A stretch of 32,000 nucleotides of DNA from Nitrosopumilus maritimus SCM1 (lineage in GTDB: Archaea; Thermoproteota; Nitrososphaeria; Nitrososphaerales; Nitrosopumilaceae), in NCBI RefSeq assembly GCF_000018465.1, contig NC_010085.1, forward strand, positions 1,500,001 through 1,532,000. The letters run 5' to 3'. The position numbers and the translations under genes are program-made. Positions within the stretch are counted from its first letter, which is position 1. Every line of letters starts with the position of its first letter. A model generated the notes under the pieces. That model was not told where the DNA came from and did no database searches. It worked only from the letters and a program-made list of their open reading frames with translations. This document shows positions 2,127 through 27,380 of this stretch, piece after piece.

Positions 2127-3422
2127 TCAAACTACAATAATTTCTCGTTGTACTAGATTCTCAATTATGTTTAAGAATTGTTCATCAGTAATTTTTTCTT
2201 CATACCACCAACCTGCAGGAATTTGTACCCATTGAGGAATCTTCCATTGTGATTCAGAAACTACTTCACGCGTTGGAACAGATAGGATTTGTTTTTCAAA
2301 AAGAAAGTCAATTCCTTCTAAAAATTCTGAATCAGGAATTTGTTGAGTTGCCCACCAGTCAGCATTTTGTTTTACCCAAACAGGAACTGTAGGAAGTTCA
2401 GGAGGTAATCCTTTGTCAAAACCTGAAATCTTCAAAACACCTTGGGATTGAGGCTCAACAGTAAATGCAACATGCCAGAATCCCATATCATCAATGCTTT
2501 GGATAAATTCTATAGGTTCGTCATTTAGTGTGACAGAAAATTTTTCATTTCCAGAAATTGGAGCAAATTCAAAGTTTGCATATGTCTCTAATGGATAACT
2601 ATTGTAACCTCTAATTGTCATTGTTGTTCCAGATTCATCAAATTTTGCAGCTGAATACCATGCACCTGAATCGTATCTGAAATCAAAATCACCACCATTC
2701 TTCTTTGCAGTCACAGGAATTACAGTAGTATCAACTGGTGCAAAGCAACTATAGTAAAAGATATCCTCAGTTACTGAAGGATCAGGATACATTGTAAAGT
2801 CTAGAATTTCTCCAGGTTCAATTTTTTCAATATATTCGATATTTTGAGTAATATCTAGAACTTTTTCATATCCATGAACAACTGCAAAAATTTTTGGAAA
2901 GTGTATTGTTTCATTTCCAGTGTTTTGAATTCTGCCTGATATATGACCATCTTCATGTTTGACTAGTGTCTTATCATAAAGAATTTGGATTGGAACTGGA
3001 TTAGTCATTGTTTGTTCATAAATTAATTCAGGATTAACTAGAACTGGAGTGTTTGATTGTACTTCAGGAAATTTTATCTTAAATGGAATTTCTGTTCCAG
3101 CAGCAAGTGGAACATGCTGAATAGTTTTTGAAATTGTTTCAGAATTTTCAATTACAGAAACGGTAATTGTAGGAATTATTGCAAAATCATTTTCATTTTT
3201 AACATTACCAACTACAGTGTAAATTCCAGTTGAATCAAAATATCCCAAGTACTCATGTAATGGAACATAAACTTCAGCAAAACTCAAACTAGGAGAAAAC
3301 AGAATGATTGAGAAAAATCCTAGTAATAGAAGAATTTGTGGTTGAGAAACTCTAGAAAGAGTTGATGATATCTTCGAATCCAGAAGTTGGTTTTTCAAGT
3401 AGGCTTGGTCTATAGTCTTCAA
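2127..3422 (-). CDS. Secreted protein with duplicated beta-sandwich-like domains and two C-terminal 37-aa WW modules
   Basis: 431 aa. The signal peptide ends ...SPSLSFA|EVY. The two C-terminal modules are VPVWVKQNADWWATQQIPDSEFLEGIDFLFEKQILSV (2277-2387) and IPQWVQIPAGWWYEEKITDEQFLNIIENLVQREIIVV (2130-2240). The tracked start at 3422 is TTG, and a second in-frame TTG lies at 3398. Either start overlaps the upstream wHTH gene by 47-71 nt, so the true start is uncertain. Confidence 0.8.
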   Translation of the reverse strand: MKTIDQAYLKNQLLDSKISSTLSRVSQPQILLLLGFFSIILFSPSLSFAEVYVPLHEYLGYFDSTGIYTVVGNVKNENDFAIIPTITVSVIENSETISKTIQHVPLAAGTEIPFKIKFPEVQSNTPVLVNPELIYEQTMTNPVPIQILYDKTLVKHEDGHISGRIQNTGNETIHFPKIFAVVHGYEKVLDITQNIEYIEKIEPGEILDFTMYPDPSVTEDIFYYSCFAPVDTTVIPVTAKKNGGDFDFRYDSGAWYSAAKFDESGTTMTIRGYNSYPLETYANFEFAPISGNEKFSVTLNDEPIEFIQSIDDMGFWHVAFTVEPQSQGVLKISGFDKGLPPELPTVPVWVKQNADWWATQQIPDSEFLEGIDFLFEKQILSVPTREVVSESQWKIPQWVQIPAGWWYEEKITDEQFLNIIENLVQREIIVV

Positions 3423-3852
3423 CTAGTTTATCTATCAAGTCTCTGACTTTAATATGATATCTTTTTTTGAGTTGAACAACTTTTGTTTCTACTAGTCCAT
3501 CATCAACTAGTTGTGACAAATACAATGACACGGTTGATGGGGATTTGTTTACCTCTTTAACTAGTTGAGGAAATTCTAAACCATCTTCTTTGACTAGTGC
3601 AAGTAACAAATCACGTGGAGTTTGTTTTCTTAATGCTTTGATAACAATTGATTCATCTTCTGTAATTTGTGGAGGATAGAATCTAGCTTGTCTTGGACCA
3701 CGATCAGCTTTGATAACTCCGTTTCTTTCTAATTTATCTAGATAATGACTTAGTACTCCATTTTTTAATCCAGAAGAACGCATGATTTCACGGAATTGGA
3801 TTCCTGGATTTTTTTCTATTATTTCTTGAATTTGTGAATCTCTATCAGTCAT
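3352..3852 (-). CDS. Transcriptional regulator with two winged-helix (ArsR/MarR-like) domains
   Basis: 166 aa. The first wHTH is IQFREIMRSSGLKNGVLSHYLDKLERNGVI. The second is FPQLVKEVNKSPSTVSLYLSQLVDDGLVE. Its start overlaps the stop of the upstream membrane-protein gene by 8 nt. Confidence 0.75.
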   Translation of the reverse strand: MTDRDSQIQEIIEKNPGIQFREIMRSSGLKNGVLSHYLDKLERNGVIKADRGPRQARFYPPQITEDESIVIKALRKQTPRDLLLALVKEDGLEFPQLVKEVNKSPSTVSLYLSQLVDDGLVETKVVQLKKRYHIKVRDLIDKLVEDYRPSLLEKPTSGFEDIINSF

Positions 3853-4237
3853 TTCTAAACACTCCTAACGCTAGCAATCCTAATGTTGCAAAGGTCAATA
3901 AATGTCCTACCTCTGCAAGAGGCATAAATTCTAGATCATAGATGCTTGGCCATGTTGCATCAACTAACAAAACAACTTCAGCTGCAATAAAGTTGGCAAA
4001 TGCTATAGAGCTAAGTAAAAGTCGTTTTGTTCTTAATCGATAGTATGCAAATCCTGCAAGTATTGAGATGAAAACTGCAAGAGTAATTCCTCCAACATGT
4101 AAAAAGATGTGAGCGATATGATGCCCATGTAGTAAATGAGGGATGATTACTGGTAAAGCCAAAATTGCAACAACACCAGTAACTACAAGAGAAAATAGCA
4201 TAGATTTTTTCTCTAGTATCCTTTCAGCTCTAAACAA
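3845..4237 (-). CDS. Small polytopic membrane protein with a His-rich first helix end
   Basis: 130 aa (118 aa from the ATG at 4201) with about 4 predicted TM helices and the motif PHLLHGHHIAHIFLH. The tracked start at 4237 is TTG, and the ATG at 4201 (MLFSLVVTG...) is an equally good start. Confidence 0.6.
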   Translation of the reverse strand: MFRAERILEKKSMLFSLVVTGVVAILALPVIIPHLLHGHHIAHIFLHVGGITLAVFISILAGFAYYRLRTKRLLLSSIAFANFIAAEVVLLVDATWPSIYDLEFMPLAEVGHLLTFATLGLLALGVFRND

Positions 4238-4300
4238 AGTAATGAAATTTGATTAATTTTTCATTTAAAGCAACTGGTTCAATTCTCGAACTAGCATCGA

Positions 4301-5923
4301 TCAGACACGAATGATTCCCTTTTGAATCAAATATTCCAGTCCTTGGACAAATGTCTGATCGTCTATTTGTTTTGCAGCCCACCATGCAGCATTGTTTCTA
4401 ATCCATGATGGAATTTCTTGGGATGAAGAATCTTGTTGTTGTGTTGATGGAATTACAATTATTTTGTTTTTGATGAGATATTCAATTCCTTGAACAAATG
4501 TATTATCATCAATTTGTTCTTCAGACCACCACAATGCATTGTTTCTAATCCAATCAGGAATTGTAATTTCTTTTTGAGATGTAACTCTATCAATTACAAT
4601 TGGAATAGTTGTTCTTGCAAGATCATTATTATCTAAATTATTAAAATTTAGATTAACAATTCCTGTAACATCTTGTGGAATTGTAAACTCTACTACATTA
4701 TGTTCTTCTCTTGAATCAGTACTTGTTCCACTTTGTTGGTAAATGACTTTGTTATTTTGTGTAATAGAGAAATCATAATTTGTTGCTATAGGTTTGTTTT
4801 TCAAGAAAACATCAGTTACATCAAATAATATTTTTGCATCAGAACCAGATTGCAAGTTTTCAGGTTCCCAAGATGCAAAAATTCGAAATTGTCCATTTTC
4901 AGTAACTGAGCTCATATGCGGATAATCTCTATCAGGAGTAATTAGGAAATTCATGCCATTTTCATTTGAGCCATTTTCAAGAACTCGGAGTAATTCTTGT
5001 TGATAAATAATAAAATGCACCACACGACCGTCAGAAAAAAAGTCATCTATTGTAGATATGTCATCAGAGAGTTCTACTCCATTAATGTACATGGTGAATC
5101 CAGATACAAGCAAATCACCATAGGTTTTTGGAATATCTAACTCTTCATGGACAACTGATGTTTGATTGATGTTTGTATGACTCCATTCAAAAGGCATTGA
5201 AAATCTAATCTCTTTTGAATCAGTATCATATTCAAAGTCAGATATTTCATCATAGTAAGTAATTACGTCAATGCTTTGTTCTCCAAAGTTTGGATCAACA
5301 AAATCATGGCTAGAGGTTTGGGCAATAGAAATTCCTGCATTAAACACTAGTGGTTTTTCAAGTGTTTTTGAATATCCATCAGCAGTAAGTATACTGATAT
5401 CAAATTTGTACAGTCCACCCTCACTGAGTTTTGGGCCTTTGACATGAATTAGTCTACTATCTAATCCCAATATGGAACCAAAGAAATTAGCACCAGTTTC
5501 TTCTTCTATTACAATAGAATCAGTTTCTTCTGAAACAAAATTGAATACTAGAAAACCATTATCTGTTTTGAATTCTTGCTCAAAGAGAAATTGGTTTCCT
5601 TTCTCAGATTTTATGTGAAATGTAACATCACGTAGTGTAATTTTTGAATCAAAGTCAATCAGAGAAATAGAGATTTGTTGATCGTCATCTGCTTCAGGAT
5701 CACTTTGTGATGAAGAAACCTCTACAGTTACTTGTTTTCCATCAAGGTTTACAGGAGGAAATGTCTCACTTCCTACACCATGACCAAAGGCACTATCAAA
5801 AGTAAATACAAACAACAATGGCAGTAAAAGTAACAGGAATAGATTTTTCAAATTATGTCCACTTGTTTGGATCTTTTTTACGAATTTCTTTTCCATCAAT
5901 TGTAACAGAGTCTTTTTCTTCAA
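4301..5923 (-). CDS. Secreted multi-domain protein, paralog of 6093-7811, with a predicted N-terminal His after signal cleavage and two C-terminal WW modules
   Basis: 540 aa as tracked, from a TTG start. The signal peptide ends ...FTFDSAFG|HGVGSE. It is collinear with 6093-7811 in sequence (SIAQ..., MPFEW/MPFDW, VVHEE..PKT, VVHF(I/L)I..QEL). The WW modules are at 4451-4561 and 4304-4414. Alternative starts are the ATG at 5896 and the TTG at 5851 (MKNLFLLLLLPLLF...). Confidence 0.85.
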   Translation of the reverse strand: MKKKTLLQLMEKKFVKKIQTSGHNLKNLFLLLLLPLLFVFTFDSAFGHGVGSETFPPVNLDGKQVTVEVSSSQSDPEADDDQQISISLIDFDSKITLRDVTFHIKSEKGNQFLFEQEFKTDNGFLVFNFVSEETDSIVIEEETGANFFGSILGLDSRLIHVKGPKLSEGGLYKFDISILTADGYSKTLEKPLVFNAGISIAQTSSHDFVDPNFGEQSIDVITYYDEISDFEYDTDSKEIRFSMPFEWSHTNINQTSVVHEELDIPKTYGDLLVSGFTMYINGVELSDDISTIDDFFSDGRVVHFIIYQQELLRVLENGSNENGMNFLITPDRDYPHMSSVTENGQFRIFASWEPENLQSGSDAKILFDVTDVFLKNKPIATNYDFSITQNNKVIYQQSGTSTDSREEHNVVEFTIPQDVTGIVNLNFNNLDNNDLARTTIPIVIDRVTSQKEITIPDWIRNNALWWSEEQIDDNTFVQGIEYLIKNKIIVIPSTQQQDSSSQEIPSWIRNNAAWWAAKQIDDQTFVQGLEYLIQKGIIRV

Positions 5924-6059
5924 AGATTGTATGCCATTTACCGTTACTAGGGAAAATTTTGTTCATCTCTTCAACTTTTTTACTGGTTGGAGCTTTATTC
6001 ATCAAAGCTCCCCACCTCATGTTAGGAACTTTTGGCATGATATCATTGATGTCTTTCAT
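5853..6059 (-). CDS. Possible small protein (68 aa), function unknown
   Basis: This ORF is open in an AT-rich genome where random ORFs are short, and it lies between the two large paralogs. Its stop (5853-5855) sits 1 nt before the in-frame TTG at 5851 of the next gene. It has no recognisable motif and overlaps the tracked N-terminus of 4301-5923. Confidence 0.35.
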   Translation of the reverse strand: MKDINDIMPKVPNMRWGALMNKAPTSKKVEEMNKIFPSNGKWHTIFEEKDSVTIDGKEIRKKDPNKWT

Positions 6060-6092
6060 TTTATTATCACTTTACTGAATTTATTTAAAAAC

Positions 6093-7811
6093 TTATGATT
6101 GAACTTTCATGATTCCTTCTTTAATCAAGAATTGAATTCCTTGGATAAAGGCATCATCATCAATTGCGCCTTCTGCCCACCAACCTGCATTGTTTTTAAT
6201 CCATGCTGGAATTTCATTAGAACCTGTACCTTCACCTGCAGAGGTTGGGGGGATTTGCAAAATATTTTCTTTAACTAAATATTGAATTCCCTGAACAAAA
6301 GAACCATCATCTATTTGTCCAGCAGCCCACCATTCTGCATTGTTCTTAATCCATGCAGGAATTGCGGCCGGTGTTTGTTCTTCAGGTGTAGGCACAGTTT
6401 TACCAGTACTAGGACCTAACTCAATTATTCCTGAACCAATTCCTGCATAAGTCTCATCATATGCTAATCCAGTACCTAAGGCTCTAATGTCAATCCTATA
6501 GACTCCTTGTGATGGGACATAGATTTTCTTTATGTCAATTCCTTCAGTGGCCACTATTCCTGGCATTTGTGGATCATCTCCCAAAAAGGTCTCTAGGACT
6601 TCATCGTTTTCGTCAATAAATGATACAACATATCTCATATCTCGAATAAGTTCTCTATTTTCATCAAAGAATGTAATCTCAAATGGAATTTCATCTCCTG
6701 CGCCATAACTTCCATCCCATGAAATGTTAACAGTTGTTGGAACAGGTTCATAGTTTGTAGTGTCTACTAGATAAAATTCAGTTGATTGTTTTTCTATTTC
6801 ATCAAGTGGAACGAGTTTCAAATCCATTTTTGGATTTTCATAGTTTGCTTCACCTAATGTCTCGTTAATTCTTTGTAATTCTTGATTAGTAATTAGAAAG
6901 TGAACAACGTTAGTATCATCATATGAGTATGGATCATTTAGTAATGCTCTTTGATCAACCTCGATACCATTAACATATCCTTTGAATTGTTTACCTTCTG
7001 CATATGGTGCAAATGTTTTTGGGACTCTAACTTCTTCATGAACTACTTGGACCAAATCAACATATTCTGGAGTCCAGTCAAATGGCATATCAAATGAAAT
7101 TGAATTATCTGATTGATCAAAGTTGAAATTATCAACTTGATCATAGTATGTTTTGACAACAACTGGAATGTCTGCATTTGCAGTTTGTATCATAAAGTTT
7201 TGATCTTGTGCAATACTAACAAAAGTATCATAGCTTAACAAATTTGCCAAGATAGATTTTGGACTGGTTGCAGCTTCAATATCAACACGGATTTGATACA
7301 ATCCACCTTCTATGAATATTGGACCCGTAATTTCAGGTCTTGCACACACATCTAAATTCTCATCATTACAATCCGTACCATAAACAAATAGAGCACCAGG
7401 TGCACTGACATGTTCTGAACCATAATAAACAGAACATTGATGTAGATTTTCCTCATTACAATCAGTTTTTGGTGTTATTTTTACATCTAGTCGTCCATCC
7501 AAATCATAAAACAAGTTTCTAGCTAAAAGTTCTCCACTTTGCCAAACTTCTATTCTGTAGGTTACTTTGTCAAGATTGGTATCAGTCACAGTATCAAAGA
7601 AACGAACTTGCATGTTTGCGGTATCAACTTCACCTACTGTAATATCAGATGGAGTTAGTTGTGTGCTAACAGTCACTGCCATATCACCAAAAGAGATAGC
7701 AGGAGCTTGATCTCCACCTAGACCATGTCCAAAGACATCAGGTACTAATGCAGGTATTGTGAAAATTCCAATTATCGTAATGAATAACGCAAATTTGTTA
7801 TGCAATACCAA
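6093..7811 (-). CDS. Secreted multi-domain protein, paralog of 4301-5923, with a predicted N-terminal His and two C-terminal WW modules
   Basis: 572 aa. Only TTG starts are available (7811 or 7805). The signal peptide ends ...ALVPDVFG|HGLGGD. The WW modules are [37 protein letters not shown] (6252-6362) and [39 protein letters not shown] (6096-6212). Confidence 0.85.
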
Positions 7812-7915
7812 AACAATGTTAATTCCATATTTAAAGATGGCATAGTATTCCTATACGTGAGATTTTTTTTAAGAATGATGGTACGATTTTTATTTATCAA
7901 TTTTTGAAGTACGGT

Positions 7916-8743
7916 ATGAAGATTCTGTTTGTATTATTACTTATTCCATTTTTAATGGTTCCAGCATTTGCTGAAACTCAAACATTACCCACAGAAAAGA
8001 ATACTCTTGATGTTAAATTAACATACGATACCATTGAGCCAGGTATTCAAACTAAGATCAACATAGATTTTATTAATCCACAAACTCAAAAAGTTCAAGA
8101 ACACATTGACTATACAGTAGTTGTTTCAAAAGATGGTGAGACTGTATTTGGTCCAATTCCACTTACACATACTTCTCTGGGTTCTGTCAAAATCCCAATA
8201 GAATTTAATCGTGGTGAAGGAGTGTATTCAATGGACTTTGAAGTTGAAGGAATTTTATTCCAACCAATTCCAAGAGAGACTGTATCTTTTGATATTCAAG
8301 TAGGTGAAGCCAATGCACAACCAATTACACCACCTGAAGACAACAATGATGAGAATAATGGAGAAAATGGGGGTTGTCTTATTGCAACAGCAACATTTGG
8401 TTCAGAACTTGCACCACAAGTACAACAACTTAGGGAACTTAGAGACAACACAGTTCTCAAAACAAATTCAGGAATTACATTTATGACAACTTTTAATCAA
8501 TTCTATTATTCGTTCTCACCAGTTATTGCAGACTTTGAAAGAGAGCAACCATTATTCAAAGAAGTTATGAAAGTAACACTCACTCCAATGTTATCATCAT
8601 TATCATTGCTTAATCATGCAGATATTGATTCAGAACAAGAGATGTTAGGTTATGGCATATCCATAGTACTGCTAAATCTTGGAATGTATGTTGGAATTCC
8701 TATATTTGGAATTCTAAAGTTGTACCAATTTAGAAAAAACTAG
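7916..8743 (+). CDS. Secreted beta-sandwich protein with a CFI-box-type C-terminal domain (GC(L/F)IATA(T/A)(F/Y)GS...LRxxRD)
   Basis: The tracked ORF starts at the TTG at 7904, but the ATG at 7916 gives MKILFVLLLIPFLMVPAFA|ETQ. An Asn/Glu/Asp/Gly-rich acidic linker is followed by GGCLIATATFGSELAPQVQQLRELRDNTVL... (Cys codon at 8375-8377) and a hydrophobic tail. This matches the motif I recall for CFI-box-CTERM proteins. Confidence 0.8.
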   Translation: MKILFVLLLIPFLMVPAFAETQTLPTEKNTLDVKLTYDTIEPGIQTKINIDFINPQTQKVQEHIDYTVVVSKDGETVFGPIPLTHTSLGSVKIPIEFNRGEGVYSMDFEVEGILFQPIPRETVSFDIQVGEANAQPITPPEDNNDENNGENGGCLIATATFGSELAPQVQQLRELRDNTVLKTNSGITFMTTFNQFYYSFSPVIADFEREQPLFKEVMKVTLTPMLSSLSLLNHADIDSEQEMLGYGISIVLLNLGMYVGIPIFGILKLYQFRKN

Positions 8744-8802: not shown

Positions 8803-9615
8803 ATGAAGACTATAGCAATTTGCTCTCTCTTCGTACTATTTGCAATGGTAGCTGGATTAGTTGCAACAACGCCAGCAGCATTTGCAAACCATCCAGAAGT
8901 CACAATCGTACCAGCATCAGGTTCTGGTGCACCAGGTTGTGAAGAAACAGCAGATGGATGTTACATTCCAAGTACTGCAACAGTTGATGTTGGAGGTGTT
9001 GTAATCATGTCAAATACTGACACTGCAGCACACACATACACTTCAGGAACTCCAGATGATGGACCAGACGGTATCTTTGATACTAGTTTGTTAATGGCCG
9101 GAAGTTCATTTGAATGGAGTCCAACTGAAGAAGGTGAATATCCTTACTTCTGTATGGTACATCCTTGGATGCAAGGTACGATTATAGCTGCAGCAGCAGG
9201 AGCTGACGATCATGGTGACGATGGCGGTGAATTAATGGTTTCAATTGCAGATTCACAAGTATTGGGTGGAACACAAATTGAACTTACATTCAGCGAATTA
9301 CACGTCAACTATGACATTACTGCAACACAAGGTGGCGAAGTAGTCCTACAAGAAACTAATCAACACGCAATGGAGTCTACAGCAACGCATCAAATTGATG
9401 CACTAGGTGCTGATGACAATCCAATTGATGTAGAAATTGTTTCTCTAGGAATTGGAGCACCAGGTGCTGAAGCAGATTGGACTGGACCAACAGGTGTAGT
9501 TGCAACTGCTAAAGTTGTTCCAGAATTTGGTACAATCGTAATGATGGTACTAACTGTTGCAATCATAAGCATTGTAGCAGTAACTGCAAAATCTAGAGTT
9601 ATTCCAAGATTTTAG
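8803..9615 (+). CDS. Plastocyanin-like blue copper protein with a PEFG-CTERM sorting signal
   Basis: 270 aa. The signal peptide ends ...TPAAFA|NHPE. The cupredoxin ligand pattern is ...AAHTYTS... and YFCMVHPWMQGTI (C-x2-H-x2-M). The C-terminus VVPEFGTIVMMVLTVAIISIVAVTAKSR (PEFG at 9520-9531) is the thaumarchaeal PEFG-CTERM architecture. Confidence 0.9.
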   Translation: MKTIAICSLFVLFAMVAGLVATTPAAFANHPEVTIVPASGSGAPGCEETADGCYIPSTATVDVGGVVIMSNTDTAAHTYTSGTPDDGPDGIFDTSLLMAGSSFEWSPTEEGEYPYFCMVHPWMQGTIIAAAAGADDHGDDGGELMVSIADSQVLGGTQIELTFSELHVNYDITATQGGEVVLQETNQHAMESTATHQIDALGADDNPIDVEIVSLGIGAPGAEADWTGPTGVVATAKVVPEFGTIVMMVLTVAIISIVAVTAKSRVIPRF

Positions 9616-9628: not shown

Positions 9629-10258
9629 CTATTTTCTTTTTACTAAAGCAATTATCGCTAAGATTATAGCTGCTCCAGCAATCGATAATCCAAATATTGC
9701 AAAGTCATATGCTGCACCGCCATCGGATGTTACTTCGGTTTCTCCAGACTTTAGTTTAGAAACATCTTGTTGTAATGATGAGATTGCATTCTTTAGAGCA
9801 GCAACATCAGCAGTACCTTCACTACTTGTTGGTGGAAAATCTAAGACTGCAGTTGATTCTACATCTTCAATTGGGATTTTAATATCAACTGGAACACCAC
9901 GTATTTCTCCTTTCAGTTCTATCATGTATGTTCCAGTTTTAGTAGGGATGACTGGCGAGAAATAATAACCAGGTCTAGGATCAGAATTTACTTCAATTTT
10001 CTTTGCTGCACCACCAAACATAGTAGTTACATCAACATCTTTGAAAGCGCTTGTAACTCCTGTAAAGGTACCTTCTTTTTCTCCACGCTCAATAATTTTT
10101 AGCATGAATTCATTTCTAATTCCTACAACTGGAGGTTCAACTCCCCAACCTGCTTCAATTTCGTATTGTTCGACATTAACAGTAGTATGAGCAAATGAAG
10201 GAGCTATCATCCCAATAGAGAACAACAAACCAATAATACCAAAAATTATGATTTTCAT
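9629..10258 (-). CDS. Membrane-anchored extracytoplasmic beta-sandwich protein with a predicted N-terminal His (YcnI/CopC-like by architecture only)
   Basis: The tracked ORF extends to 10321, but the ATG at 10258 gives MKIIIFGIIGLLFSIGMIAPSFA|HTTVNVEQYEIEAGWG. It has a C-terminal TM anchor, FAIFGLSIAGAAIILAIIALVKRK. It is divergent from the CopC-CopD gene. Confidence 0.7.
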   Translation of the reverse strand: MKIIIFGIIGLLFSIGMIAPSFAHTTVNVEQYEIEAGWGVEPPVVGIRNEFMLKIIERGEKEGTFTGVTSAFKDVDVTTMFGGAAKKIEVNSDPRPGYYFSPVIPTKTGTYMIELKGEIRGVPVDIKIPIEDVESTAVLDFPPTSSEGTADVAALKNAISSLQQDVSKLKSGETEVTSDGGAAYDFAIFGLSIAGAAIILAIIALVKRK

Positions 10259-10360
10259 TGCTATCATTTTATAATTACAGGTTATTATCTTTACGTGAAT
10301 TGGTACAAAGATCGAATTCATGAAAACTGTTTAAATTATGAATGATTAATTGAAGAATGA

Positions 10361-13144
10361 ATGCAAAAGTTTCTGATTGTTTTATTGATGATGTCGTTTA
10401 TTTCAATTCCATTAGCATCAGCTCATCCTTTTACTGAGGAAACTATTCCAAGTTTAACATCTAGTGCTCCAGCTGGAACAACAGAAGTTATCGTATATTT
10501 TTCAGAACCAATTGATATTAACTTTAGTGAACTCAGAGTATTTGATACAAATGGAAATCAAATAGACAACAAAGATACGGCTTACTATGAAGGAGAATTA
10601 TCTCTGATCATTACAACATCACCATTGGAAGATGGAGTTTATACTGTATCAACCAAAGTTCTCTCCAAAGTAGATGGACATCTTGTTCCAGATGCATTCT
10701 TGTTTGCAGTTGGTGATGTTGTAATTGATCCCTCATTACTTGATGTAGAACGACCATCTGAAATCATATTTTTACCCGAAGCTGGTGCTAGATTCCCAGG
10801 ACTGATTGGTCAAACAATTGTCTTAGGTGCAGTAATTGCATCACTCATAATTTGGGGAACACAGAATAAACAACTAATCAGAGAAGAATTAGATAAGATT
10901 GGAAACTTCCATCAGGGAAAGTTTATGTCAATTACAGGAATTGGGCTTGTTTTAATTTTCATTTCTAATATTTTGATGATTGCAGTTCAGAGTATAAGAC
11001 TTGGGGTTTCTCCGCTTGATGCAATTCAAACGGATTTTGGAATAACATGGATATTGAGAATGAGCATTACAATAATTATACTAGGTATTTGGTTTAGACT
11101 TGATAGAAGCAAGTCACTATCAAAAAAGAATCAAATTCTATTGTTGGGAGCAATGCTTGCATTAATTTCAACTTCAAGTTTGATTGGTCACGGTGCAGCT
11201 AGTGAAAACATACCAGCATTAATACTTGATTACATTCACAATTTAGTTTCAGGAGTTTGGATAGGCGGAATTATTTACTTCGTATTTATTTTACTTCCAA
11301 CATTCTCTCAACTAAAAGAGACACAACGAGAAAAGATGAGTCTGTTAATGATTCCTCGATTCTCAATTACATTTATCATTGCTGTAGGAGTGATCATAAT
11401 CACAGGTCCAACATTGATGTGGTTTCTAGAAAGTGATATTAGATTAATTACAGAATCGATTTATGGTCAATTAATTATTCTAAAGATTTCAATTGCAGCA
11501 GTAATAATTGCATTTGGGGGATTTTTTCAATTCAAATTACAAAAGAAGGCAGAAAAGAATCTGGAATCAGGAAAAATTTCTGTTCATAAAAAATTAAAAA
11601 AATCGCTCAAAGTTGACGTAGTACTAGGAATAGTACTTCTAGGAGTTGTTGCATTAATTACAAATGCAACACTACCAGCAGGAGAAATCCAAAAAATTGA
11701 TGCACAAGAGATAATTTACGGATTTGAAACTCTGGAATTTACTGAAAATGCAAAATTTGACATTGACATTTCGCCATTTTCAAGTGGCTCAAACACAATT
11801 CTAGTTAAAGTTAGTGACTTTGAGGGAAATCCACTCTACGATTCAAATCAGCTTAAAGTCAAGGTATCAAACCCATCAAAGAATATCTCACCAATAGAAG
11901 TACCAATGGAGATAATCAAACAGGATAAAAATAGACCAATAGAATTCAAAGGTGAAATGACATTTGGGTTTTCAGGAGAATGGTTAATGGAAGTTGAGGC
12001 ACAAAGAACTGAAAATGCAAATGAATCAAAGCTTTTGAATTTACTAGTAAAACCAAGACTGACTGACATTCAGACACAAGTTATCGAATACGAACTCCCA
12101 AAAGATTCAAAACCACTTTTCCCATTGTATGATGGACGAGATACACTTTGGGTAAGTGATGCATCAGCTCCACGTTTGTGGGAATTTTCACTTGAAACTC
12201 AAGAGTTTACATCATATTCATTTGATGGATTGACTACAACATTTCTAACACAAGACAAAGACGGTAAAATTTGGTTTACAGATACTCCCAGAAATCAAAT
12301 TGGATTCATAGACCCTCAAACAAAAGAGATTATAACAAAAACAATTCCAAAACTTGATCCTGTTATTTCAGACAATACTCCACTTTTCATAAAAGCAGAC
12401 TTTGATGGAAATATTTGGATTACAATTGTTAACAAAGACAGAATTGTAAAATATATACCAGAAAATGATGAGTTTGAAGAGATTGTTCTTCCAGGAAAAG
12501 AGAACTTGCCATTTGCATTAGATATTGATGTAGATGGAAAGATGTGGTATACAACAACTGGTGCAGGAAATATTGGATATATTGATCCTAAAGACAATCA
12601 AATTACTCAATTTTCAAATGATCCACCATTACAAGGACCTGAGGCTTTGCTCTTTGATGAAGATGGAAACATCTGGATTGCAGAGCATACAGGCTTGGCA
12701 ATTACCAAGTTTAACCCAGTTTTAGAGACATTTGAGAGAATTACCGTGCCTAATGATGAAGCATTACCGTTTGGTATGACATTTGATAGATATGGAAATG
12801 TTTGGTTTGCTCAACATACAATAGATAGTATTGGAGCATATGATCCGGATAACAATAATTTGATTGAAGTACCAGTTCCTTCAGAAACATCCTTTGTACA
12901 ATTCATGACATCAGATGGAGACAGTAATGTTTGGTTTGTTGAACAACAAACAAGTAAGATTGGTACAATAAAGATGACAGAAATTCCAGTTACTGCATCA
13001 CAAATTCAATCATCAGGAGAATTTGAATTAAAATACACAGAACTTGCATCGCCACTAATTGCATTAGGAATTATTGCAACATCTTTGTTTTATGTGAAGA
13101 GTATTCAAGATAAAAGAAGACTAAATGAATTAATTAATTCTTAG
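10361..13144 (+). CDS. CopC-CopD fusion protein extended by a beta-sandwich domain, a Vgb/NHL-like beta-propeller and a C-terminal TM anchor
   Basis: 927 aa. The signal peptide ends PLASA|HPFTEE. The CopC pattern reads (...EVIVYFSEPI...GVYTVSTKVLSKVDGHLVPDAFLFAVG). About 8 TM helices with HGAASEN form a CopD-like region (roughly aa 140-440). A sandwich domain follows at aa 455-560. Repeated propeller blades follow (DGKIWFTDTPRNQIGFIDPQTKEI, GNIWITIVNKDRIVKYIP, GKMWYTTTGAGNIGYIDP, GNIWIAEHTGLAITKFNP, GNVWFAQHTIDSIGAYDP, SNVWFVEQQTSKIGTI). The final TM is LIALGIIATSLFYV. Confidence 0.9.
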   Translation: MQKFLIVLLMMSFISIPLASAHPFTEETIPSLTSSAPAGTTEVIVYFSEPIDINFSELRVFDTNGNQIDNKDTAYYEGELSLIITTSPLEDGVYTVSTKVLSKVDGHLVPDAFLFAVGDVVIDPSLLDVERPSEIIFLPEAGARFPGLIGQTIVLGAVIASLIIWGTQNKQLIREELDKIGNFHQGKFMSITGIGLVLIFISNILMIAVQSIRLGVSPLDAIQTDFGITWILRMSITIIILGIWFRLDRSKSLSKKNQILLLGAMLALISTSSLIGHGAASENIPALILDYIHNLVSGVWIGGIIYFVFILLPTFSQLKETQREKMSLLMIPRFSITFIIAVGVIIITGPTLMWFLESDIRLITESIYGQLIILKISIAAVIIAFGGFFQFKLQKKAEKNLESGKISVHKKLKKSLKVDVVLGIVLLGVVALITNATLPAGEIQKIDAQEIIYGFETLEFTENAKFDIDISPFSSGSNTILVKVSDFEGNPLYDSNQLKVKVSNPSKNISPIEVPMEIIKQDKNRPIEFKGEMTFGFSGEWLMEVEAQRTENANESKLLNLLVKPRLTDIQTQVIEYELPKDSKPLFPLYDGRDTLWVSDASAPRLWEFSLETQEFTSYSFDGLTTTFLTQDKDGKIWFTDTPRNQIGFIDPQTKEIITKTIPKLDPVISDNTPLFIKADFDGNIWITIVNKDRIVKYIPENDEFEEIVLPGKENLPFALDIDVDGKMWYTTTGAGNIGYIDPKDNQITQFSNDPPLQGPEALLFDEDGNIWIAEHTGLAITKFNPVLETFERITVPNDEALPFGMTFDRYGNVWFAQHTIDSIGAYDPDNNNLIEVPVPSETSFVQFMTSDGDSNVWFVEQQTSKIGTIKMTEIPVTASQIQSSGEFELKYTELASPLIALGIIATSLFYVKSIQDKRRLNELINS

Positions 13145-13954: not shown

Positions 13955-14677
13955 TTAATGATGATGCATATGCTCCTGCATAGATGCTTCAGAATACTGT
14001 TTGACAAGCTCATCATCAGAGAAGAATTTTTCAGATTCTCCATGGAAGAATAACGTTCTGTTAAGACAAGCAACATGATTAGCTAGTTGGTTTACTGCAT
14101 CCAAATCATGAGAAGACCAAATGATTGTAATTTTTTGTTTAGAGTTTAGTTCACGTAAGATACTGTAGAATAATTCTATACTTTGCTGATCAATTCCTGT
14201 AATCGGTTCATCTAAAATCAAAAGTTTTGGATTATTTACCAAAGCTTTTGCAATAAAGACTCGTTGTAGTTGTCCTCCTGATAATTCTCCTATTCTTCTA
14301 TTTCGGAGTTCATGTATCCACAATTGTTGCAAAATTTCATTAATTTTATTTTCATCAGATTCATTTCTCAGTCCCATCCTAACAACATCAGTAACAGTTG
14401 CCGGAAAATTTTTTTCAAAAATTGGTTTTTGGGGAACATATCCAATTTCTTTAAGATAATTTTTTGAAATTCTGATATCCTTATCAAAAAATTTGATTTC
14501 ACCTTTGTACTTTGTATTGAGACCAAGCATGCAATCAAAAAGAGTGGATTTTCCAGCGCCATTTGGGCCAATTATGCCTAGAAAATTACCTTGATTAACC
14601 ACAAAACTGACATCATCAAGAGCTTTTACGTCAGGATATTGAACTGAAAGGTTACTTATTTCAACTGCTTTCAACAC
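13955..14677 (-). CDS. Metal ABC transporter ATP-binding protein (ZnuC/TroB-like)
   Basis: 240 aa. It has Walker A GPNGAGKST, signature LSGGQLQR, Walker B LLILDEP, and a His-rich tail MQEHMHHH. Confidence 0.9.
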   Translation of the reverse strand: MLKAVEISNLSVQYPDVKALDDVSFVVNQGNFLGIIGPNGAGKSTLFDCMLGLNTKYKGEIKFFDKDIRISKNYLKEIGYVPQKPIFEKNFPATVTDVVRMGLRNESDENKINEILQQLWIHELRNRRIGELSGGQLQRVFIAKALVNNPKLLILDEPITGIDQQSIELFYSILRELNSKQKITIIWSSHDLDAVNQLANHVACLNRTLFFHGESEKFFSDDELVKQYSEASMQEHMHHH

Positions 14678-15591
14678 AAGGCCTCCTGTAGATTCTCAAG
14701 ATTTTGTTTCATTTTAGAAATGTATGTCCCTTCAGATGCAATTTCTAATGGAGAGAGGACCAAAACTTGTCCACCAATTTCATGTGCAATGGTTTCAGAA
14801 GTTCTAGTGTCAACTGTTTCTTCACTAAAAATTATTTTAATATTATGTTCTTTAGCTGTTGAAATTACATTTTCTAATGTTTTTGCAGTTGCTTCTCCGT
14901 GTGGATCAGTTGAAGATAGAATTGTATGTTGATGTAAATCATATTCATCTGCAAAATATGAAAAAGCATCATGAAATGCAATAAAATCGGAATTACAATT
15001 AGACAAATCATTTCTAATTTGTAAATCCAATAAAGTTAGTTCTTGAATGTAAGATTCTGCATTAGATTGATAATATTGTTGATTTTCTGGATCATGTTTT
15101 GAAAATTCATCAGCAATATTTTGAACTTGGATTTTTGCAAAAACTGGATTTAACCAAATATGAGGATCTCCTGTTTCACGATTAGGTTCATCCATATGTT
15201 CATCTTCTTCATATTCTTTTACTAAAATTCCATTACTTGTGTCAACAATATTTCCTTGATAGTTATTCTCATCAAGTTTATCTACCCAGTCTTCAAAACC
15301 AATTCCATTAATAATTATCATATCAGATATTTGCATTTTTTGAACATCTTTGATTGTTGGTTCCCAATCATGAGGTTCAACTCCAACTGGAACAAGCAAT
15401 ATTGCATCAACTTTGTCTTGTCCTATATTTTGTACAAATTCATGTAACGGATCAAATGATGAAATTACTTGTAATTTTGACTTTTCAGAATATATTGAAT
15501 CTGTATTTGGACTTATTCCATAAACTGCAAAGGAACTTAATGGAATTACTACTGCAATTGCAATTATCGCAAGTTTGGTTTGTGTATTCAT
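14671..15591 (-). CDS. Metal ABC transporter substrate-binding protein (TroA/ZnuA cluster A-I)
   Basis: 306 aa with a signal/anchor helix. It carries HDWEP, an acidic/His loop EEDEHMDEPNRETGDPHIWLNP, and FHDAFSYF, which are hallmarks of the ZnuA/TroA family. It overlaps the ATPase gene by 7 nt. Confidence 0.9.
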   Translation of the reverse strand: MNTQTKLAIIAIAVVIPLSSFAVYGISPNTDSIYSEKSKLQVISSFDPLHEFVQNIGQDKVDAILLVPVGVEPHDWEPTIKDVQKMQISDMIIINGIGFEDWVDKLDENNYQGNIVDTSNGILVKEYEEDEHMDEPNRETGDPHIWLNPVFAKIQVQNIADEFSKHDPENQQYYQSNAESYIQELTLLDLQIRNDLSNCNSDFIAFHDAFSYFADEYDLHQHTILSSTDPHGEATAKTLENVISTAKEHNIKIIFSEETVDTRTSETIAHEIGGQVLVLSPLEIASEGTYISKMKQNLENLQEALC

Positions 15592-23134: not shown

Positions 23135-23647
23135 CTAACTTATGGTAACTAATCCTACTCTCCATGGATGAAATGAGCAATAGTAGTTGAAAACTCCTTT
23201 CTCCTCGAACGTAAATTCGAATCTATCTCCTGTATTTAGTGGTGGACTGTTAAACAATTGAATGACTTTTCCTCCCTCATCGATACTTTGTATGTTGTGT
23301 GGTACTGAATCATCATTTACCCATGTGACTGTAGTTCCTACTGAAATTTCCAGATTCAATGGAGAGTAAAATCCGGCGCCAGTTACATCAAAGTTTCCAT
23401 TTGGAATAACAACTTGCGCATTAACTACTTGTGGAACTGGCTCCATCACCGTATCTATTACAATTACTTCATTTTCAATCAAGAATTTTATCATGTTGAG
23501 AAATTCACTTTCTGAGACAATTCCTTCACCGTACCATAATGCTGTATTTTTTACCCACTCTGGAACTGATTCAGCAAATGCAGACACACCGCCAATAGAA
23601 AGAACAATAGGGATTAGTGCAAGAATCAGATAATTCATCACATACAA
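23135..23647 (-). CDS. Secreted cupredoxin with an N-terminal WW module and a non-canonical axial position
   Basis: 170 aa. The signal peptide ends ...GGVSAFA|ES. The WW module VPEWVKNTALWYGEGIVSESEFLNMIKFLIENEVIVI is at 23456-23566. The cupredoxin part reads VGTTVTWVNDDSVPHNIQS...YYCSFHPWRVGLVTIS, with Arg where the paralog at 8803 has the axial Met. Confidence 0.85.
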   Translation of the reverse strand: MYVMNYLILALIPIVLSIGGVSAFAESVPEWVKNTALWYGEGIVSESEFLNMIKFLIENEVIVIDTVMEPVPQVVNAQVVIPNGNFDVTGAGFYSPLNLEISVGTTVTWVNDDSVPHNIQSIDEGGKVIQLFNSPPLNTGDRFEFTFEEKGVFNYYCSFHPWRVGLVTIS

Positions 23648-26744: not shown

Positions 26745-27380
26745 CTATGAAATAGGCTTTTCATCTTTTTCTAAGATGTTGTTTCTAGTCCCAAGCCAAT
26801 CAGGCCATCCGGCCCATCCTTTGTTTTTGTATGTTCTATTGGGAGTTGTAGGTATATCTGCAGGTAGCTGAAATGTTTTGTAATATTGCACCCATTGAAG
26901 ATAATTACAAAGTTTTAATTTTCTTGCAAACATTCTAGCTTGATTAAATGGTCTGAATTTTTTGTTTTGTGGAGCTACGGTATAAGTCCCAAGCCAATCC
27001 CCAAACCCTTTCCACTCTTTTGTATAATACTGTCGTGGAACAGATGGGATGTCCTGAGGTTTTTTGTTTGATTTACAAAATTCTAACCAGTCATAATAAG
27101 TTCTTAAATTAAGTGAATGTGCAAATTTTCTCGCATCCTTAAATGATCTAAATTTTTTGTTTTGTGGAGCTACGGTATAAGTCCCAAGCCAATCCCCTAA
27201 CCCCTTCCACTTTTTTGCATAATGTTTTCGTGGAACAGATGGGATGTCCTGAGGTTTTTTGTTTGATTTACAAAACAAAATCCATTCACGTTCATTTTTT
27301 AATTTTAAACTGTGTACATAATCTCGTGCATTCTTAAAAGATTTGAATTTCATATTTTTTCTAATTGTCACATTTATCAC
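26745..27380 (-). CDS. Basic protein made of three ~65-aa repeats (F.(S/P)F..AR.F...L.L....W..(F/Y)(C/Y)K....P.DIP..P...Y...W.G..DWLGT), integrase-repeat-like
   Basis: 211 aa with repeats at aa 12-76, 77-141 and 142-198. The first two are about 75 percent identical and share long identical DNA runs. The start overlaps the stop of the upstream membrane-protein gene (ATGA, 27377-27380). Confidence 0.75.
   Translation of the reverse strand: MINVTIRKNMKFKSFKNARDYVHSLKLKNEREWILFCKSNKKPQDIPSVPRKHYAKKWKGLGDWLGTYTVAPQNKKFRSFKDARKFAHSLNLRTYYDWLEFCKSNKKPQDIPSVPRQYYTKEWKGFGDWLGTYTVAPQNKKFRPFNQARMFARKLKLCNYLQWVQYYKTFQLPADIPTTPNRTYKNKGWAGWPDWLGTRNNILEKDEKPIS
26787..27347. repeat. Intragenic tandem repeat, period 195 bp, about 2.9 units
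   Basis: Identical 47-nt runs lie at 26956-27002 / 27151-27197 and at 27034-27080 / 27229-27275, offset exactly 195 bp (65 codons). The third unit is degenerate. Confidence 0.9.

What the first reader, a model, noticed from the sequence alone, without database searches (positions are those of the whole stretch)
2130..6362. A 37-aa 'IPxW(I/V)(K/R)NNAxWW...F.xGI(Q/E)(Y/F)L(I/V)..xI(I/L)' module occurs 7 times at the termini of four secreted proteins
The seven copies are at 2277-2387, 2130-2240, 4451-4561, 4304-4414, 6252-6362, 6096-6212 and, outside this span, 23456-23566. In three proteins it forms a C-terminal tandem pair separated by a Ser/Thr/Gln/Gly/Glu-rich linker of 12-13 aa, and the second copy ends the protein. 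In the fourth protein, a cupredoxin, a single copy sits right after the signal peptide. The passenger domains are unrelated (cupredoxin, duplicated sandwich protein, the large paralogs), so this is a portable module and not simply shared ancestry of whole proteins. I do not recognise it as a named family. The pattern (aromatic-x-A ... GIxxLxxxGII) is only loosely reminiscent of SLH-type wall-binding motifs. A terminal, tandem, linker-separated module on exported proteins suggests an anchoring or docking function. It could attach to the S-layer, the pseudo-periplasm or a partner protein, as an alternative to the PEFG-CTERM and TM anchors used by neighbouring genes.
Basis: seen in the sequence. 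Interest (0 to 1): 0.75.

Follow-up and report, generated by a model that had tools for sequence, protein, structure and literature searches.

The report
Terminal docking module of Nitrosopumilus exoproteins
A 37-residue, tryptophan-rich helical-hairpin module sits, usually as a tandem pair, at the very end of exported proteins of Nitrosopumilus-type ammonia-oxidising archaea; it matches no described domain family or solved structure, and it most likely holds otherwise anchor-less enzymes and copper proteins at the cell envelope, though its binding partner is unknown.

Summary
Seven copies of a 37-aa module lie at the stated coordinates in four minus-strand genes of Nitrosopumilus maritimus SCM1: Nmar_1644, 1647 and 1648 (C-terminal pairs) and the plastocyanin Nmar_1665 (one copy after the signal peptide). 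Leave-one-protein-out profiles recover each left-out copy at E 1e-10 to 1e-18, and nothing else in the window scores. No Pfam, NCBIfam, PDB-sequence or Foldseek match exists. SLH and dockerin were tested and rejected. The module occurs in 5,736 protein clusters, and every identifiable one is from Nitrosopumilaceae. It sits on exported proteins that have no other anchor and carry very diverse passengers. Position is terminal: 112 of 148 are C-terminal and 30 follow the signal peptide. In 208 pairs the linker is 12-13 aa in 194. AlphaFold models the pair confidently as two helical hairpins (pLDDT 89, pTM 0.77), while a lone copy is modelled poorly. The best reading is a position-independent, non-covalent envelope-docking domain, analogous to but unrelated to SLH or dockerin. 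The ligand is unknown and the function is inferred, not shown. The database names ('peptidase') appear to have been propagated through the module. This is a new domain family within a known functional class.

The parts
6093..7811 (-). Nmar_1648 (ABX13544.1), 572 aa: signal peptide, large passenger whose mature N-terminus begins with His, and a C-terminal module pair
   Evidence: exact match to ABX13544.1 / A9A1M9
6252..6362 (-). Module copy 1 of Nmar_1648 ([37 protein letters not shown])
   Evidence: helices 5-15 and 21-33 in the AF2 model
6213..6251 (-). 13-aa linker [13 protein letters not shown] between the two copies
   Evidence: linker length is 12-13 aa in 194 of 208 pairs
6102..6212 (-). 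Module copy 2 of Nmar_1648; two residues (QS, 6096-6101) follow before the stop
   Evidence: helices 55-65 and 71-83 in the AF2 model
4301..5896 (-). Nmar_1647 (ABX13543.1), 531 aa from the annotated ATG at 5896: distant paralog of Nmar_1648 with a C-terminal module pair
4451..4561 (-). Module copy 1 of Nmar_1647
4415..4450 (-). 12-aa linker PSTQQQDSSSQE
4304..4414 (-). Module copy 2 of Nmar_1647; it ends the protein
2127..3287 (-). Nmar_1644 (ABX13540.1), 386 aa from the annotated start at 3287 (longer ORF variants start at 3398 or 3422): unrelated passenger plus a divergent C-terminal module pair
2277..2387 (-). Module copy 1 of Nmar_1644
   Evidence: E 9.5e-15 when left out
2241..2276 (-). 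12-aa linker PTREVVSESQWK
2130..2240 (-). Module copy 2 of Nmar_1644 (most divergent; NN replaced by IP); it ends the protein
   Evidence: E 2.1e-10 when left out
23135..23638 (-). Nmar_1665 (ABX13561.1), 167 aa: signal peptide, single module, variable 16-aa tether, plastocyanin-type cupredoxin
23573..23638 (-). Predicted signal peptide of Nmar_1665 (MNYLILALIPIVLSIGGVSAFA)
   Evidence: read from the sequence; hydropathy heuristic
23456..23566 (-). Single module of Nmar_1665 (variant VPEWVKNTALWYGEG...)
   Evidence: E 2.3e-11 when left out; as conserved among orthologs as the cupredoxin

Best explanation
The module is a lineage-specific, extracytoplasmic docking domain. One module is a helix-loop-helix hairpin of about 37 aa: a Trp-rich helix 1 (PxWIKNNAxWW), a loop (xxGxIDD) and helix 2 (xxFVxGIxYLIKxGII). 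Two hairpins joined by a length-constrained 12-13-aa Ser/Thr/Glu/Pro/Gly/Gln linker pack into one small four-helix unit. Placed at either end of an exported protein on a flexible tether, this unit binds non-covalently to a common component of the Nitrosopumilaceae cell envelope. Candidate components are the inner face or unresolved C-terminal domain of the S-layer protein, a SlaB-like stalk, a surface glycan or the membrane surface. Binding would retain otherwise soluble enzymes, adhesin-like proteins and copper proteins in the pseudo-periplasm or on the surface, as a third route beside TM helices and PEFG-CTERM.

What is shown: the anatomy, the distribution, the exported context, the absence of other anchors, and the confident pair model.
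What is inferred: that the unit binds something, and what that ligand is.
For: 1. Location. The modules sit on proteins with N-terminal signal peptides, and only 2 of 148 representative proteins have any TM-like segment beyond residue 45. One of those is inside a module and the other is a late signal peptide. None of the 30 proteins with N-terminal modules has a C-terminal TM helix.
2. Mutual exclusivity. Within this window, exported proteins carry a C-terminal TM helix, a PEFG-CTERM or an N-terminal membrane helix (one, the ZnuA-like solute-binding protein at 14671-15591, shows only a signal peptide). The four module proteins have none of these.
3. Interchangeable with other anchors on one passenger type. 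Cupredoxins occur with PEFG-CTERM (8803-9615), with an N-terminal single module (Nmar_1665), with a C-terminal pair (P0144, P0192) or with modules at both ends (P0156). S8 peptidases carry the module in 2 of 108 representatives, whereas most thaumarchaeal S8 peptidases are reported as membrane-anchored (PMC6790972).
4. Position-independent but terminal. 112 of 148 are C-terminal, 30 follow the signal peptide and 6 are internal. Copy number ranges from 1 to about 7. This is the pattern of wall-binding repeats such as LysM or SLH.
5. Passenger repertoire. It is typical of surface-displayed proteins: pentapeptide repeats, polysaccharide deacetylase, GDSL lipase, peptidases M10/M66/S8/C11/M12, Ig-like domains, GH57, amine oxidase, cupredoxin and beta-propellers.
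6. Strong purifying selection across unrelated passengers. P2, W4, A9, W11, W12 and F22 are invariant and N7, N8, I17, D19 and G25 exceed 94% in 208 pairs. In Nmar_1665 orthologs the module is as conserved as the cupredoxin (0.82 versus 0.83 pairwise identity), while the signal peptide (0.45) and tether (0.34) drift. A shared binding partner would explain this.
7. The pair is the folding unit. The linker is 12-13 aa in 194 of 208 pairs despite its low-complexity composition. The AF2 pair model has pLDDT 89 and pTM 0.77.
Against: - No binding partner is identified and no experiment or multimer prediction was possible.
- The module pairs are acidic (net charge -4 to -8), and so, reportedly, is the S-layer. 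Simple electrostatic docking to it is therefore unlikely.
- Genes consisting only of signal peptide plus pair, with no passenger, are real and syntenically conserved (P0051). A pure anchor-for-cargo model does not explain them.
- A single copy is modelled poorly (pLDDT below 50 to 70), so single-copy proteins may work differently.
- The statistics come from the 148-208 best-scoring proteins of 5,736 and are biased towards canonical copies.
- The S-layer pores are small, so soluble pseudo-periplasmic proteins might be retained without any anchor.
Confidence: 0.5

Rival explanations
1. The module is a protein-protein assembly module. Hairpins pair with hairpins of other module proteins in trans, forming four-helix bundles in the way the PKA RII dimerisation/docking domain does. 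This would build multi-protein complexes or a matrix in the pseudo-periplasm rather than binding an envelope component.
For: - The tandem pair is modelled confidently as two packed hairpins, whereas the lone hairpin of Nmar_1665 is modelled poorly (helix 1 pLDDT below 50). That is consistent with a need for a partner hairpin.
- Odd copy numbers and multi-copy proteins made almost only of modules exist (P0122, P0126, P0124).
- Stand-alone pairs exist and could act as caps or cross-linkers.
Against: - In 129 of 148 top proteins the hairpins come as an intramolecular pair with a fixed linker, so their pairing surfaces would already be satisfied.
- The Nmar_1665 alignment was shallow (55 close orthologs), so the low pLDDT is weak evidence.
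- This reading does not explain why the proteins lack any other anchor.
Confidence: 0.2
2. The module is a binding or stabilising domain for a soluble or diffusible ligand (a glycan, divalent cations, organic matter), or a general folding or solubility aid for exported proteins, with no role in localisation.
For: - By helical periodicity, conserved polar and aromatic residues fall on the outer face of helix 2 (Q24, Q27, Y/F28, K31), alongside N7 of helix 1 and D18-D19 of the loop.
- Passenger-less secreted pairs exist.
- The composition is acidic.
Against: - No conserved His, Cys or Met is available for metal binding, and there is no EF-hand or dockerin-type calcium loop.
- The strictly terminal position on flexible tethers and the absence of any other anchor are not predicted by a ligand-binding accessory domain. 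Such domains are usually found at variable positions next to catalytic domains.
Confidence: 0.12
3. The module is a sorting, secretion or processing signal recognised by a dedicated machinery, like PEFG-CTERM with archaeosortase or the T9SS C-terminal domain, and is removed or modified after export.
For: - 180 of 208 pairs end within 0-3 residues of the C-terminus.
- The distribution is lineage-restricted.
Against: - The same module is found directly after the signal peptide in 30 of 148 proteins, internally in 6, and in 1 to about 7 copies.
- It has no TM segment or basic tail.
- It folds as a confident globular unit.
- C-terminal sorting signals are position-dependent and single-copy.
Confidence: 0.05
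4. The database names are right: the module is part of, or related to, a (Zn-)peptidase.
For: - UniProt and NCBI name Nmar_1644 and Nmar_1648 'Peptidase' and Nmar_1647 'Secreted periplasmic Zn-dependent protease'.
- 29 of 123 pair sequences give weak hits to PF13485 Peptidase_MA_2, with best E 4.7e-4 and 16-18 bits.
Against: - These hits are far below the gathering score of 32.4 bits.
- No peptidase family matches any of the four window proteins.
- Fragments of 84-126 aa that consist only of the module pair also carry the name 'peptidase', so the name travels with the module.
- Nmar_1647 and Nmar_1648 have no HExxH. Nmar_1644 has a lone HEDGH string in its passenger.
Confidence: 0.02

Closest known systems
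SLH (S-layer homology) domain, PF00395; for example B. anthracis Sap, PDB 3PYW
   Same: - Both are short helical modules in tandem at the N- or C-terminus of exported proteins with diverse passengers.
- The copies pack into one pseudo-symmetric unit that docks the protein non-covalently to the envelope.
- They share a helix ending in '[IL]xxLxxxG[IV][IV]' ([15 protein letters not shown] versus IDSINYLVEKGAVKG).
   Different: - There is no detectable homology. hhalign probability is 2.1% over 18 columns, Pfam SLH hits 3 of 123 at E >= 0.072, and Foldseek does not retrieve SLH structures.
- The module is 37 aa rather than about 55, comes in pairs rather than triplets, and has no TRAE motif.
- The host is an archaeon without peptidoglycan or pyruvylated secondary cell-wall polymer.
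Type I dockerin, PF00404; for example C. thermocellum Xyn10B dockerin, PDB 1OHZ_B
   Same: It is a small duplicated helical segment at the terminus of many unrelated secreted enzymes. It is highly conserved within a lineage because every copy must fit one partner, and it mediates non-covalent docking.
   Different: - No sequence or profile similarity was found (hhalign probability 0.05%; no Pfam hit).
- There is no DxNxDG calcium-binding loop.
- No cohesin-like partner is known.
- Copy number varies from 1 to 7.
PKA RII-alpha type dimerisation/docking (D/D) domain (comparison from my own knowledge, not tested here)
   Same: Two helix-turn-helix hairpins of about 40 aa form a four-helix bundle, and that bundle is the docking surface. 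Here the two hairpins are usually on one chain.
   Different: That domain is cytoplasmic and eukaryotic and forms intermolecular dimers. No sequence relation was seen, and Foldseek against the PDB gave nothing with E < 1.
PEFG-CTERM / archaeosortase-type sorting signals of Thaumarchaeota (TIGR04296)
   Same: It occurs in the same organisms, on the same kinds of exported proteins (including cupredoxins in this window), at the terminus, and is plausibly an alternative way of keeping proteins at the cell.
   Different: PEFG-CTERM is a motif plus TM helix plus basic tail, strictly C-terminal and single-copy, and presumably processed. The module has no TM segment, folds as a soluble unit, and also occurs N-terminally and in arrays.

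Membership tests
SLH domain (PF00395) | Sequence match to the family model at or above its curated threshold | tested here: not met
   No hit for the four window proteins at E <= 1. 3 of 123 pair sequences hit at best E 0.072. hhalign against verified Sap SLH gives probability 2.1% over 18 columns.
SLH domain (PF00395) | Unit of about 55 aa, typically three tandem copies forming a pseudo-trimer, with a conserved TRAE motif | tested here: not met
   The unit is 37 aa. 129 of 148 proteins have two copies. The consensus has no TRAE. The AF2 model shows two hairpins.
SLH domain (PF00395) | Binds pyruvylated secondary cell-wall polymer on peptidoglycan | not testable with these tools
   By established knowledge Nitrosopumilus has no peptidoglycan.
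Type I dockerin (PF00404) | Match to the family model; duplicated 22-residue segment with a DxNxDGxxxxxD calcium loop followed by a helix | tested here: not met
   It is not among the Pfam hits of 123 pairs even at E <= 10. hhalign against verified 1OHZ_B gives probability 0.05%. The consensus loop is xxGxIDD, with no calcium-loop pattern.
Type I dockerin (PF00404) | Cognate cohesin partner encoded in the same organisms | not tested
   No partner search was possible. The literature search for Thaumarchaeota plus dockerin plus cohesin found nothing relevant.
PEFG-CTERM / archaeosortase sorting signal | C-terminal tripartite signal: short motif, TM helix, basic tail; strictly C-terminal | tested here: not met
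   No TM-like segment lies in or after the modules. The module also occurs N-terminally (30 of 148) and in arrays.
Zn-peptidase / Peptidase_MA_2 (PF13485), the name given by UniProt and NCBI | Catalytic-domain match above threshold and an HExxH zinc site | tested here: not met
   There are no peptidase hits for Nmar_1644, 1647 or 1648. PF13485 hits reach only 16-18 bits against a cut-off of 32.4, and they fall on the module itself. Nmar_1647 and Nmar_1648 have no HExxH. Module-only fragments are also named 'peptidase'.
Any curated family or solved fold | Significant match in Pfam-A 2025, NCBIfam 20.0, PDB sequences, or the PDB and BFVD structure libraries | tested here: not met

The most novel reading that the evidence does not exclude
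The hairpin is a lineage-specific pairing code. Tandem pairs are self-satisfied docking units for an envelope receptor, while single or odd hairpins complete their bundle in trans with other module proteins. One example is the plastocyanin Nmar_1665, reported as the only plastocyanin up-regulated during archaeal O2 production. Under this reading the module would organise a cohesin-less, cellulosome-like layer of enzymes and electron carriers beneath the S-layer of the ocean's most abundant archaea, using a fold with no solved relative.
Probability: 0.15. Interest if true: 0.85.

Novelty: new variant of a known kind. Interest (0 to 1): 0.62.

Why it matters
Nitrosopumilaceae are among the most abundant microbes in the ocean, and their ammonia-oxidation chemistry takes place outside the membrane, under the S-layer. 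How soluble components are kept there is not known.

This module marks thousands of exported protein clusters (5,736 at 50% identity), yet curated databases ignore it and it drags a false 'peptidase' name across unrelated proteins. Recognising it has four consequences:
- It would correct a systematic mis-annotation.
- It would change localisation predictions. For example, exported thaumarchaeal proteases 'without membrane anchor' have been read as freely secreted (PMC6790972).
- It would define an AOA surface and pseudo-periplasmic proteome by a single profile.
- It would give a handle (pull-downs, fusions, cryo-ET labelling) for finding what the S-layer or membrane presents on its inner side.

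It also bears on where the O2-production-associated plastocyanin Nmar_1665 sits in the cell.

Tried and rejected
- **Curated family libraries.** Pfam and NCBIfam scans of the four proteins, and of 123 pair sequences at E <= 10, gave only recurrent sub-threshold hits. These were Peptidase_MA_2, DUF6259, A9CJY8-like_N and assorted winged-helix families that match helix 2 plus 'GII'. I rejected them as family membership.
- **PDB sequence searches.** Profiles of the single module and of the pair gave only spurious hits (E 2.5 and 0.2).
- **SLH and dockerin homology.** I tested both by hhalign against PDB-verified sequences and rejected both.
- **EF-hand or calcium loop.** I considered this from the 'GxIDDxxF' stretch. 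I rejected it because positions 1, 3 and 5 of such a loop would be Ala/Trp/Ala and position 12 is not conserved.
- **Solenoid (TPR/Sel1-like) repeat.** I rejected this because the inter-module linkers are low-complexity and the usual copy number is two.
- **Viral carriage.** If viruses carried the module it would suggest receptor binding, but no relative was found in IMG/VR.
- **Occurrence outside Thaumarchaeota.** The one 'Phycisphaerales' locus (L052) is syntenic with window 7.1-9.1 kb, so it is a mis-binned thaumarchaeal contig.
- **Literature.** Searches for the motif strings, PEFG-CTERM, Nmar locus tags, S-layer anchoring and dockerin/cohesin in Thaumarchaeota found no description of the module.
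- **Recent duplication or gene conversion.** I rejected this as the source of the similarity because of the synonymous divergence between copies.

Full report
**Observation**

The window is from Nitrosopumilus maritimus SCM1. The ORF at 6093-7811 is an exact match to ABX13544.1 (Nmar_1648). With their annotated starts, the other three host genes match as follows:
- 4304-5896 matches ABX13543.1.
- 2130-3287 matches ABX13540.1.
- 23138-23638 matches ABX13561.1.

By accession offset from Nmar_1648 I assign these to Nmar_1647, Nmar_1644 and Nmar_1665. That numbering is an inference. It is supported by the description of Nmar_1665 as a plastocyanin in the literature.

A profile of the seven finds only those seven in the six-frame translation. 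Because that is circular, I built four leave-one-protein-out profiles. The left-out copies score E 1e-17 to 1e-18 (Nmar_1648, Nmar_1647), 9.5e-15 and 2.1e-10 (Nmar_1644) and 2.3e-11 (Nmar_1665). The next best six-frame hit has E > 2.9.

The linkers are 13, 12 and 12 aa. The second copy ends the protein, or lies two residues before the stop in Nmar_1648. In Nmar_1665 the single copy begins two residues after the predicted cleavage site and precedes a PF00127 cupredoxin. At the DNA level the copies are 50-74% identical, and 38% of the codons that encode the same amino acid differ synonymously. The copies are therefore old and conserved at the protein level.

**Portability**

Nmar_1647 and Nmar_1648 are distant paralogs. 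Their passengers share 28% identity over 309 aa, but their module pairs share 53%. Nmar_1644 shares only the modules with them.

An exhaustive profile search of 1.84 billion cluster representatives found 5,736 proteins at E <= 1e-3 and 3,518 at E <= 1e-10. I examined the 148 best:
- In 112 the modules are at the extreme C-terminus, and 104 of these have exactly one pair.
- In 30 they directly follow the signal peptide.
- In 6 they are internal, including two giant proteins of 4,046 and 4,762 aa.
- Copy number runs from 2 to about 7.

The Nmar_1665 family adds a stable single-copy architecture, conserved in at least 120 clusters across Nitrosopumilus species.

The passengers of 108 of these proteins hit 57 different Pfam families. 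They include pentapeptide repeats, polysaccharide deacetylase, GDSL lipase, peptidases M10/M66/S8/C11, Ig-like domains, GH57, amine oxidase, cupredoxin, NHL propellers, DM13 and Hcp. The giants add reprolysin-like and laminin-G domains.

**Taxonomic range**

At least 569 stretches in GTDB species-representative genomes encode the module. The 80 best are Nitrosopumilus, Nitrosarchaeum, Nitrosomarinus, Nitrosomaritimum or unclassified Nitrosopumilaceae/Thaumarchaeota. The single exception is labelled Phycisphaerales, but it is syntenic with this window and is therefore mis-binned. No relative was found in viral contigs. I could not test Nitrososphaerales or deeper lineages.

**Anatomy of the module**

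I analysed 208 clean pairs, all taken from the best-scoring proteins and therefore biased towards canonical copies:
- P2, W4, A9, W11, W12 and F22 are invariant.
- N7, N8, I17, D19 and G25 exceed 94%.
- The linker is 12-13 aa in 194 of 208 pairs although its composition is low-complexity (S 23%, T 15%, E 14%, P 12%, G 9%, Q 8%).
- 180 of 208 pairs end within 0-3 residues of the stop.
- The two copies within one protein are slightly more alike (72%) than same-position copies of different proteins (67-68%) or cross-position copies (64.5%).

AlphaFold2 with a 123-sequence alignment models the Nmar_1648 pair at mean pLDDT 89 and pTM 0.77, with helices at 5-15, 21-33, 55-65 and 71-83. That is two helix-loop-helix hairpins. 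For 91 residues with a 20-residue coil, a pTM that high implies a fixed mutual arrangement. Together with the constrained linker, this makes the pair the likely folding unit. I had no access to the coordinates, so the four-helix packing is inferred.

By helical periodicity, W4, I5, N8, A9, W11 and W12 of helix 1, and F22, V23, I26, L29 and I30 of helix 2, form the buried faces. N7, Q24, Q27, Y/F28 and K31 are conserved on the outside and are candidate contact residues. This too is inference.

More degenerate variants that keep only '...W..G.I.D.EF......L...GII' occur in multi-copy proteins. The pairs are acidic, with net charge -4 to -8.

**A lone copy behaves differently**

For full-length Nmar_1665, using 55 close orthologs, AlphaFold gives the cupredoxin a pLDDT of about 80. 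The module scores below 50 in helix 1 and 64-70 in helix 2, and pTM is 0.50. The alignment is shallow, so this is weak evidence. It does fit a hairpin that needs a partner.

Among those orthologs the module is as conserved as the cupredoxin (mean pairwise identity 0.82 versus 0.83). The signal peptide (0.45) and the 16-aa tether (0.34) are not.

**Cellular context**

A crude hydropathy test found an N-terminal signal-like segment in 82 of 148 proteins. Many of the rest are N-terminally truncated metagenomic ORFs. Only 2 of 148 have a TM-like segment beyond residue 45: one lies inside a module and the other is a late signal peptide. None of the proteins with N-terminal modules has a C-terminal TM helix.

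In this window, nearly every other exported protein has one of these anchors:
- a C-terminal TM helix (7904-8743, 9629-10321)
- a PEFG-CTERM (8803-9615, 23754-24788)
- an N-terminal membrane helix

The one exception is the ZnuA-like solute-binding protein (14671-15591), which shows only a signal peptide. The four module proteins have none of these anchors. Cupredoxins occur with PEFG-CTERM, with an N-terminal module, with a C-terminal pair, or with modules at both ends.

**Comparison with known families**

No Pfam-A or NCBIfam model matches the module. Across 123 pair sequences only sub-threshold hits recur, the most frequent being A9CJY8-like_N (30), Peptidase_MA_2 (29, best E 4.7e-4, 16-18 bits against a cut-off of 32.4) and DUF6259 (24). 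SLH appears 3 times at E >= 0.072.

PDB sequence searches and Foldseek against the PDB (best E 3.2, TM <= 0.36) and BFVD found nothing.

I verified recalled SLH (Sap, 3PYW) and dockerin (1OHZ_B) sequences against the PDB and compared them with the pair profile. SLH gave probability 2.1%, with one 18-column match of helix 2 ('[15 protein letters not shown]' against 'IDSINYLVEKGAVKG'). Dockerin gave 0.05%. The module is therefore not a member of either family, although it may work like them.

Literature searches found no description of it.

**Database names**

UniProt calls Nmar_1644 and Nmar_1648 'Peptidase' and Nmar_1647 'Secreted periplasmic Zn-dependent protease'. NCBI also uses 'peptidase' for 84-126-aa fragments that contain nothing but the module pair.

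No peptidase domain is detectable in these three proteins. Nmar_1647 and Nmar_1648 have no HExxH. The name seems to have spread through the shared module, perhaps helped by the weak PF13485 similarity. Genuine peptidase passengers (M10, M66, S8, C11, M12) do exist among module proteins and may have seeded it. This last point is inference.

**Interpretation**

The best-supported reading (about 0.5) is a position-independent, non-covalent docking unit that keeps otherwise soluble exported proteins at the Nitrosopumilaceae envelope. Functionally it would be analogous to SLH, LysM or dockerin modules, but it is a new family with no solved relative. The supporting observations are:
- the exported context
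- the lack of any other anchor
- terminal placement on variable tethers
- variable copy number
- a passenger repertoire typical of surface proteins
- very strong conservation across unrelated passengers

The ligand is unknown. The published S-layer study notes an unresolved tenth Ig-like domain of NmSLP and a low-abundance SlaB homologue as possible anchoring elements (PMC11153153). Both are candidates. The PDB sequence search suggests that the S-layer protein chain does not itself carry the module. That is a weak inference.

The main rival (about 0.2) is hairpin-hairpin assembly between proteins. It is favoured by the poor single-copy model, by proteins made only of multiple modules, and by the stand-alone signal-peptide-plus-pair gene P0051. 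That gene is complete and syntenically conserved on contigs of 24-102 kb.

A sorting-signal role is unlikely, because the module also occurs N-terminally and in arrays. A peptidase role is not supported.

**Verdict**

The docking interpretation is plausible and consistent with the evidence but unproven. The module is a new, abundant, lineage-specific domain family within a known functional class.

Noticed in passing
window 6093-7811 and 4301-5896 (minus strand), N-termini: After the predicted signal-peptide cleavage, both large paralogs begin with His (…FG|HGLGG and …FG|HGVGS). Related module proteins do the same (P0188, P0205). In the same copper island, 9629-10321 (…FA|HTTV, C-terminal TM helix, no Pfam hit) and the CopC-CopD fusion 10361-13144 (…SA|HPF) also start with His. 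This suggests N-terminal-His copper sites. Pfam gives the paralogs no family.
   Followed up: partly
window 23135-23638 (minus strand), cupredoxin domain: The Nmar_1665 cupredoxin and all 54 aligned orthologs have the ligand stretch Y-C-S/T-F-H-P-W-R-V-G with no Met after the second His. It may therefore lack the usual axial Met ligand. A preprint reports Nmar_1665 as the only plastocyanin up-regulated during O2 production.
   Followed up: partly
database names of Nmar_1644, 1647 and 1648 and of module-only fragments (P0004, P0020, P0072, P0095, P0105): The names 'Peptidase' and 'Secreted periplasmic Zn-dependent protease' are attached to proteins, and to 84-126-aa fragments, that have no detectable peptidase domain. 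This is probably annotation transfer through the shared module.
   Followed up: yes
L081 4001-4342 (P0051); also P0164: These are complete genes encoding only a signal peptide plus one module pair, with no passenger. They are conserved with the same upstream neighbours on contigs of 24-102 kb.
   Followed up: partly
L052 (contig JAJDDC010000010.1, labelled Phycisphaerales MAG): The contig is syntenic with window 7.1-9.1 kb (orthologs of Nmar_1648, 1649 and 1650) and has 38% GC. It is a thaumarchaeal contig mis-binned into a bacterial MAG.
   Followed up: yes
window 8803-9615 (+) and 23754-24788 (-): A cupredoxin and a Kelch-repeat propeller both end in PEFG plus a TM helix plus a basic tail (PEFG-CTERM). 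The same passenger class (cupredoxin) therefore uses different terminal devices within 15 kb.
   Followed up: partly
window 7904-8743 (+): This exported protein has no Pfam hit. It carries an Asp/Asn/Glu-rich spacer followed by 'GGCLIATATFGSELAPQVQQLRELRD' and a C-terminal TM helix. I did not identify the conserved-looking Cys-containing motif.
   Followed up: no
window 10361-13144 (+) and 30045-31619 (+): The first is a CopC-CopD fusion extended by a C-terminal beta-propeller of the Vgb-lyase/SGL type plus a final TM helix. A second membrane-anchored propeller of the same type lies at 30045-31619.
   Followed up: partly
window 26745-27380 (-): A 211-aa protein made of three roughly 60-aa repeats (…FRSFKDARKFAHSLNL…WLEFCKSNKKPQDIPSVP…WKGFGDWLGT) matches Pfam INT_rpt, the integrase repeat unit (E 3e-10). 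It sits oddly in a metal-homeostasis region.
   Followed up: partly
P0121 (4,046 aa) and P0123 (4,762 aa): These giant proteins have two or three internal module pairs spaced about 500 aa apart, next to reprolysin-like, glucodextranase-B or laminin-G domains. They could be real polyproteins with a pair ending each unit, or they could be assembly or gene-call fusions.
   Followed up: no
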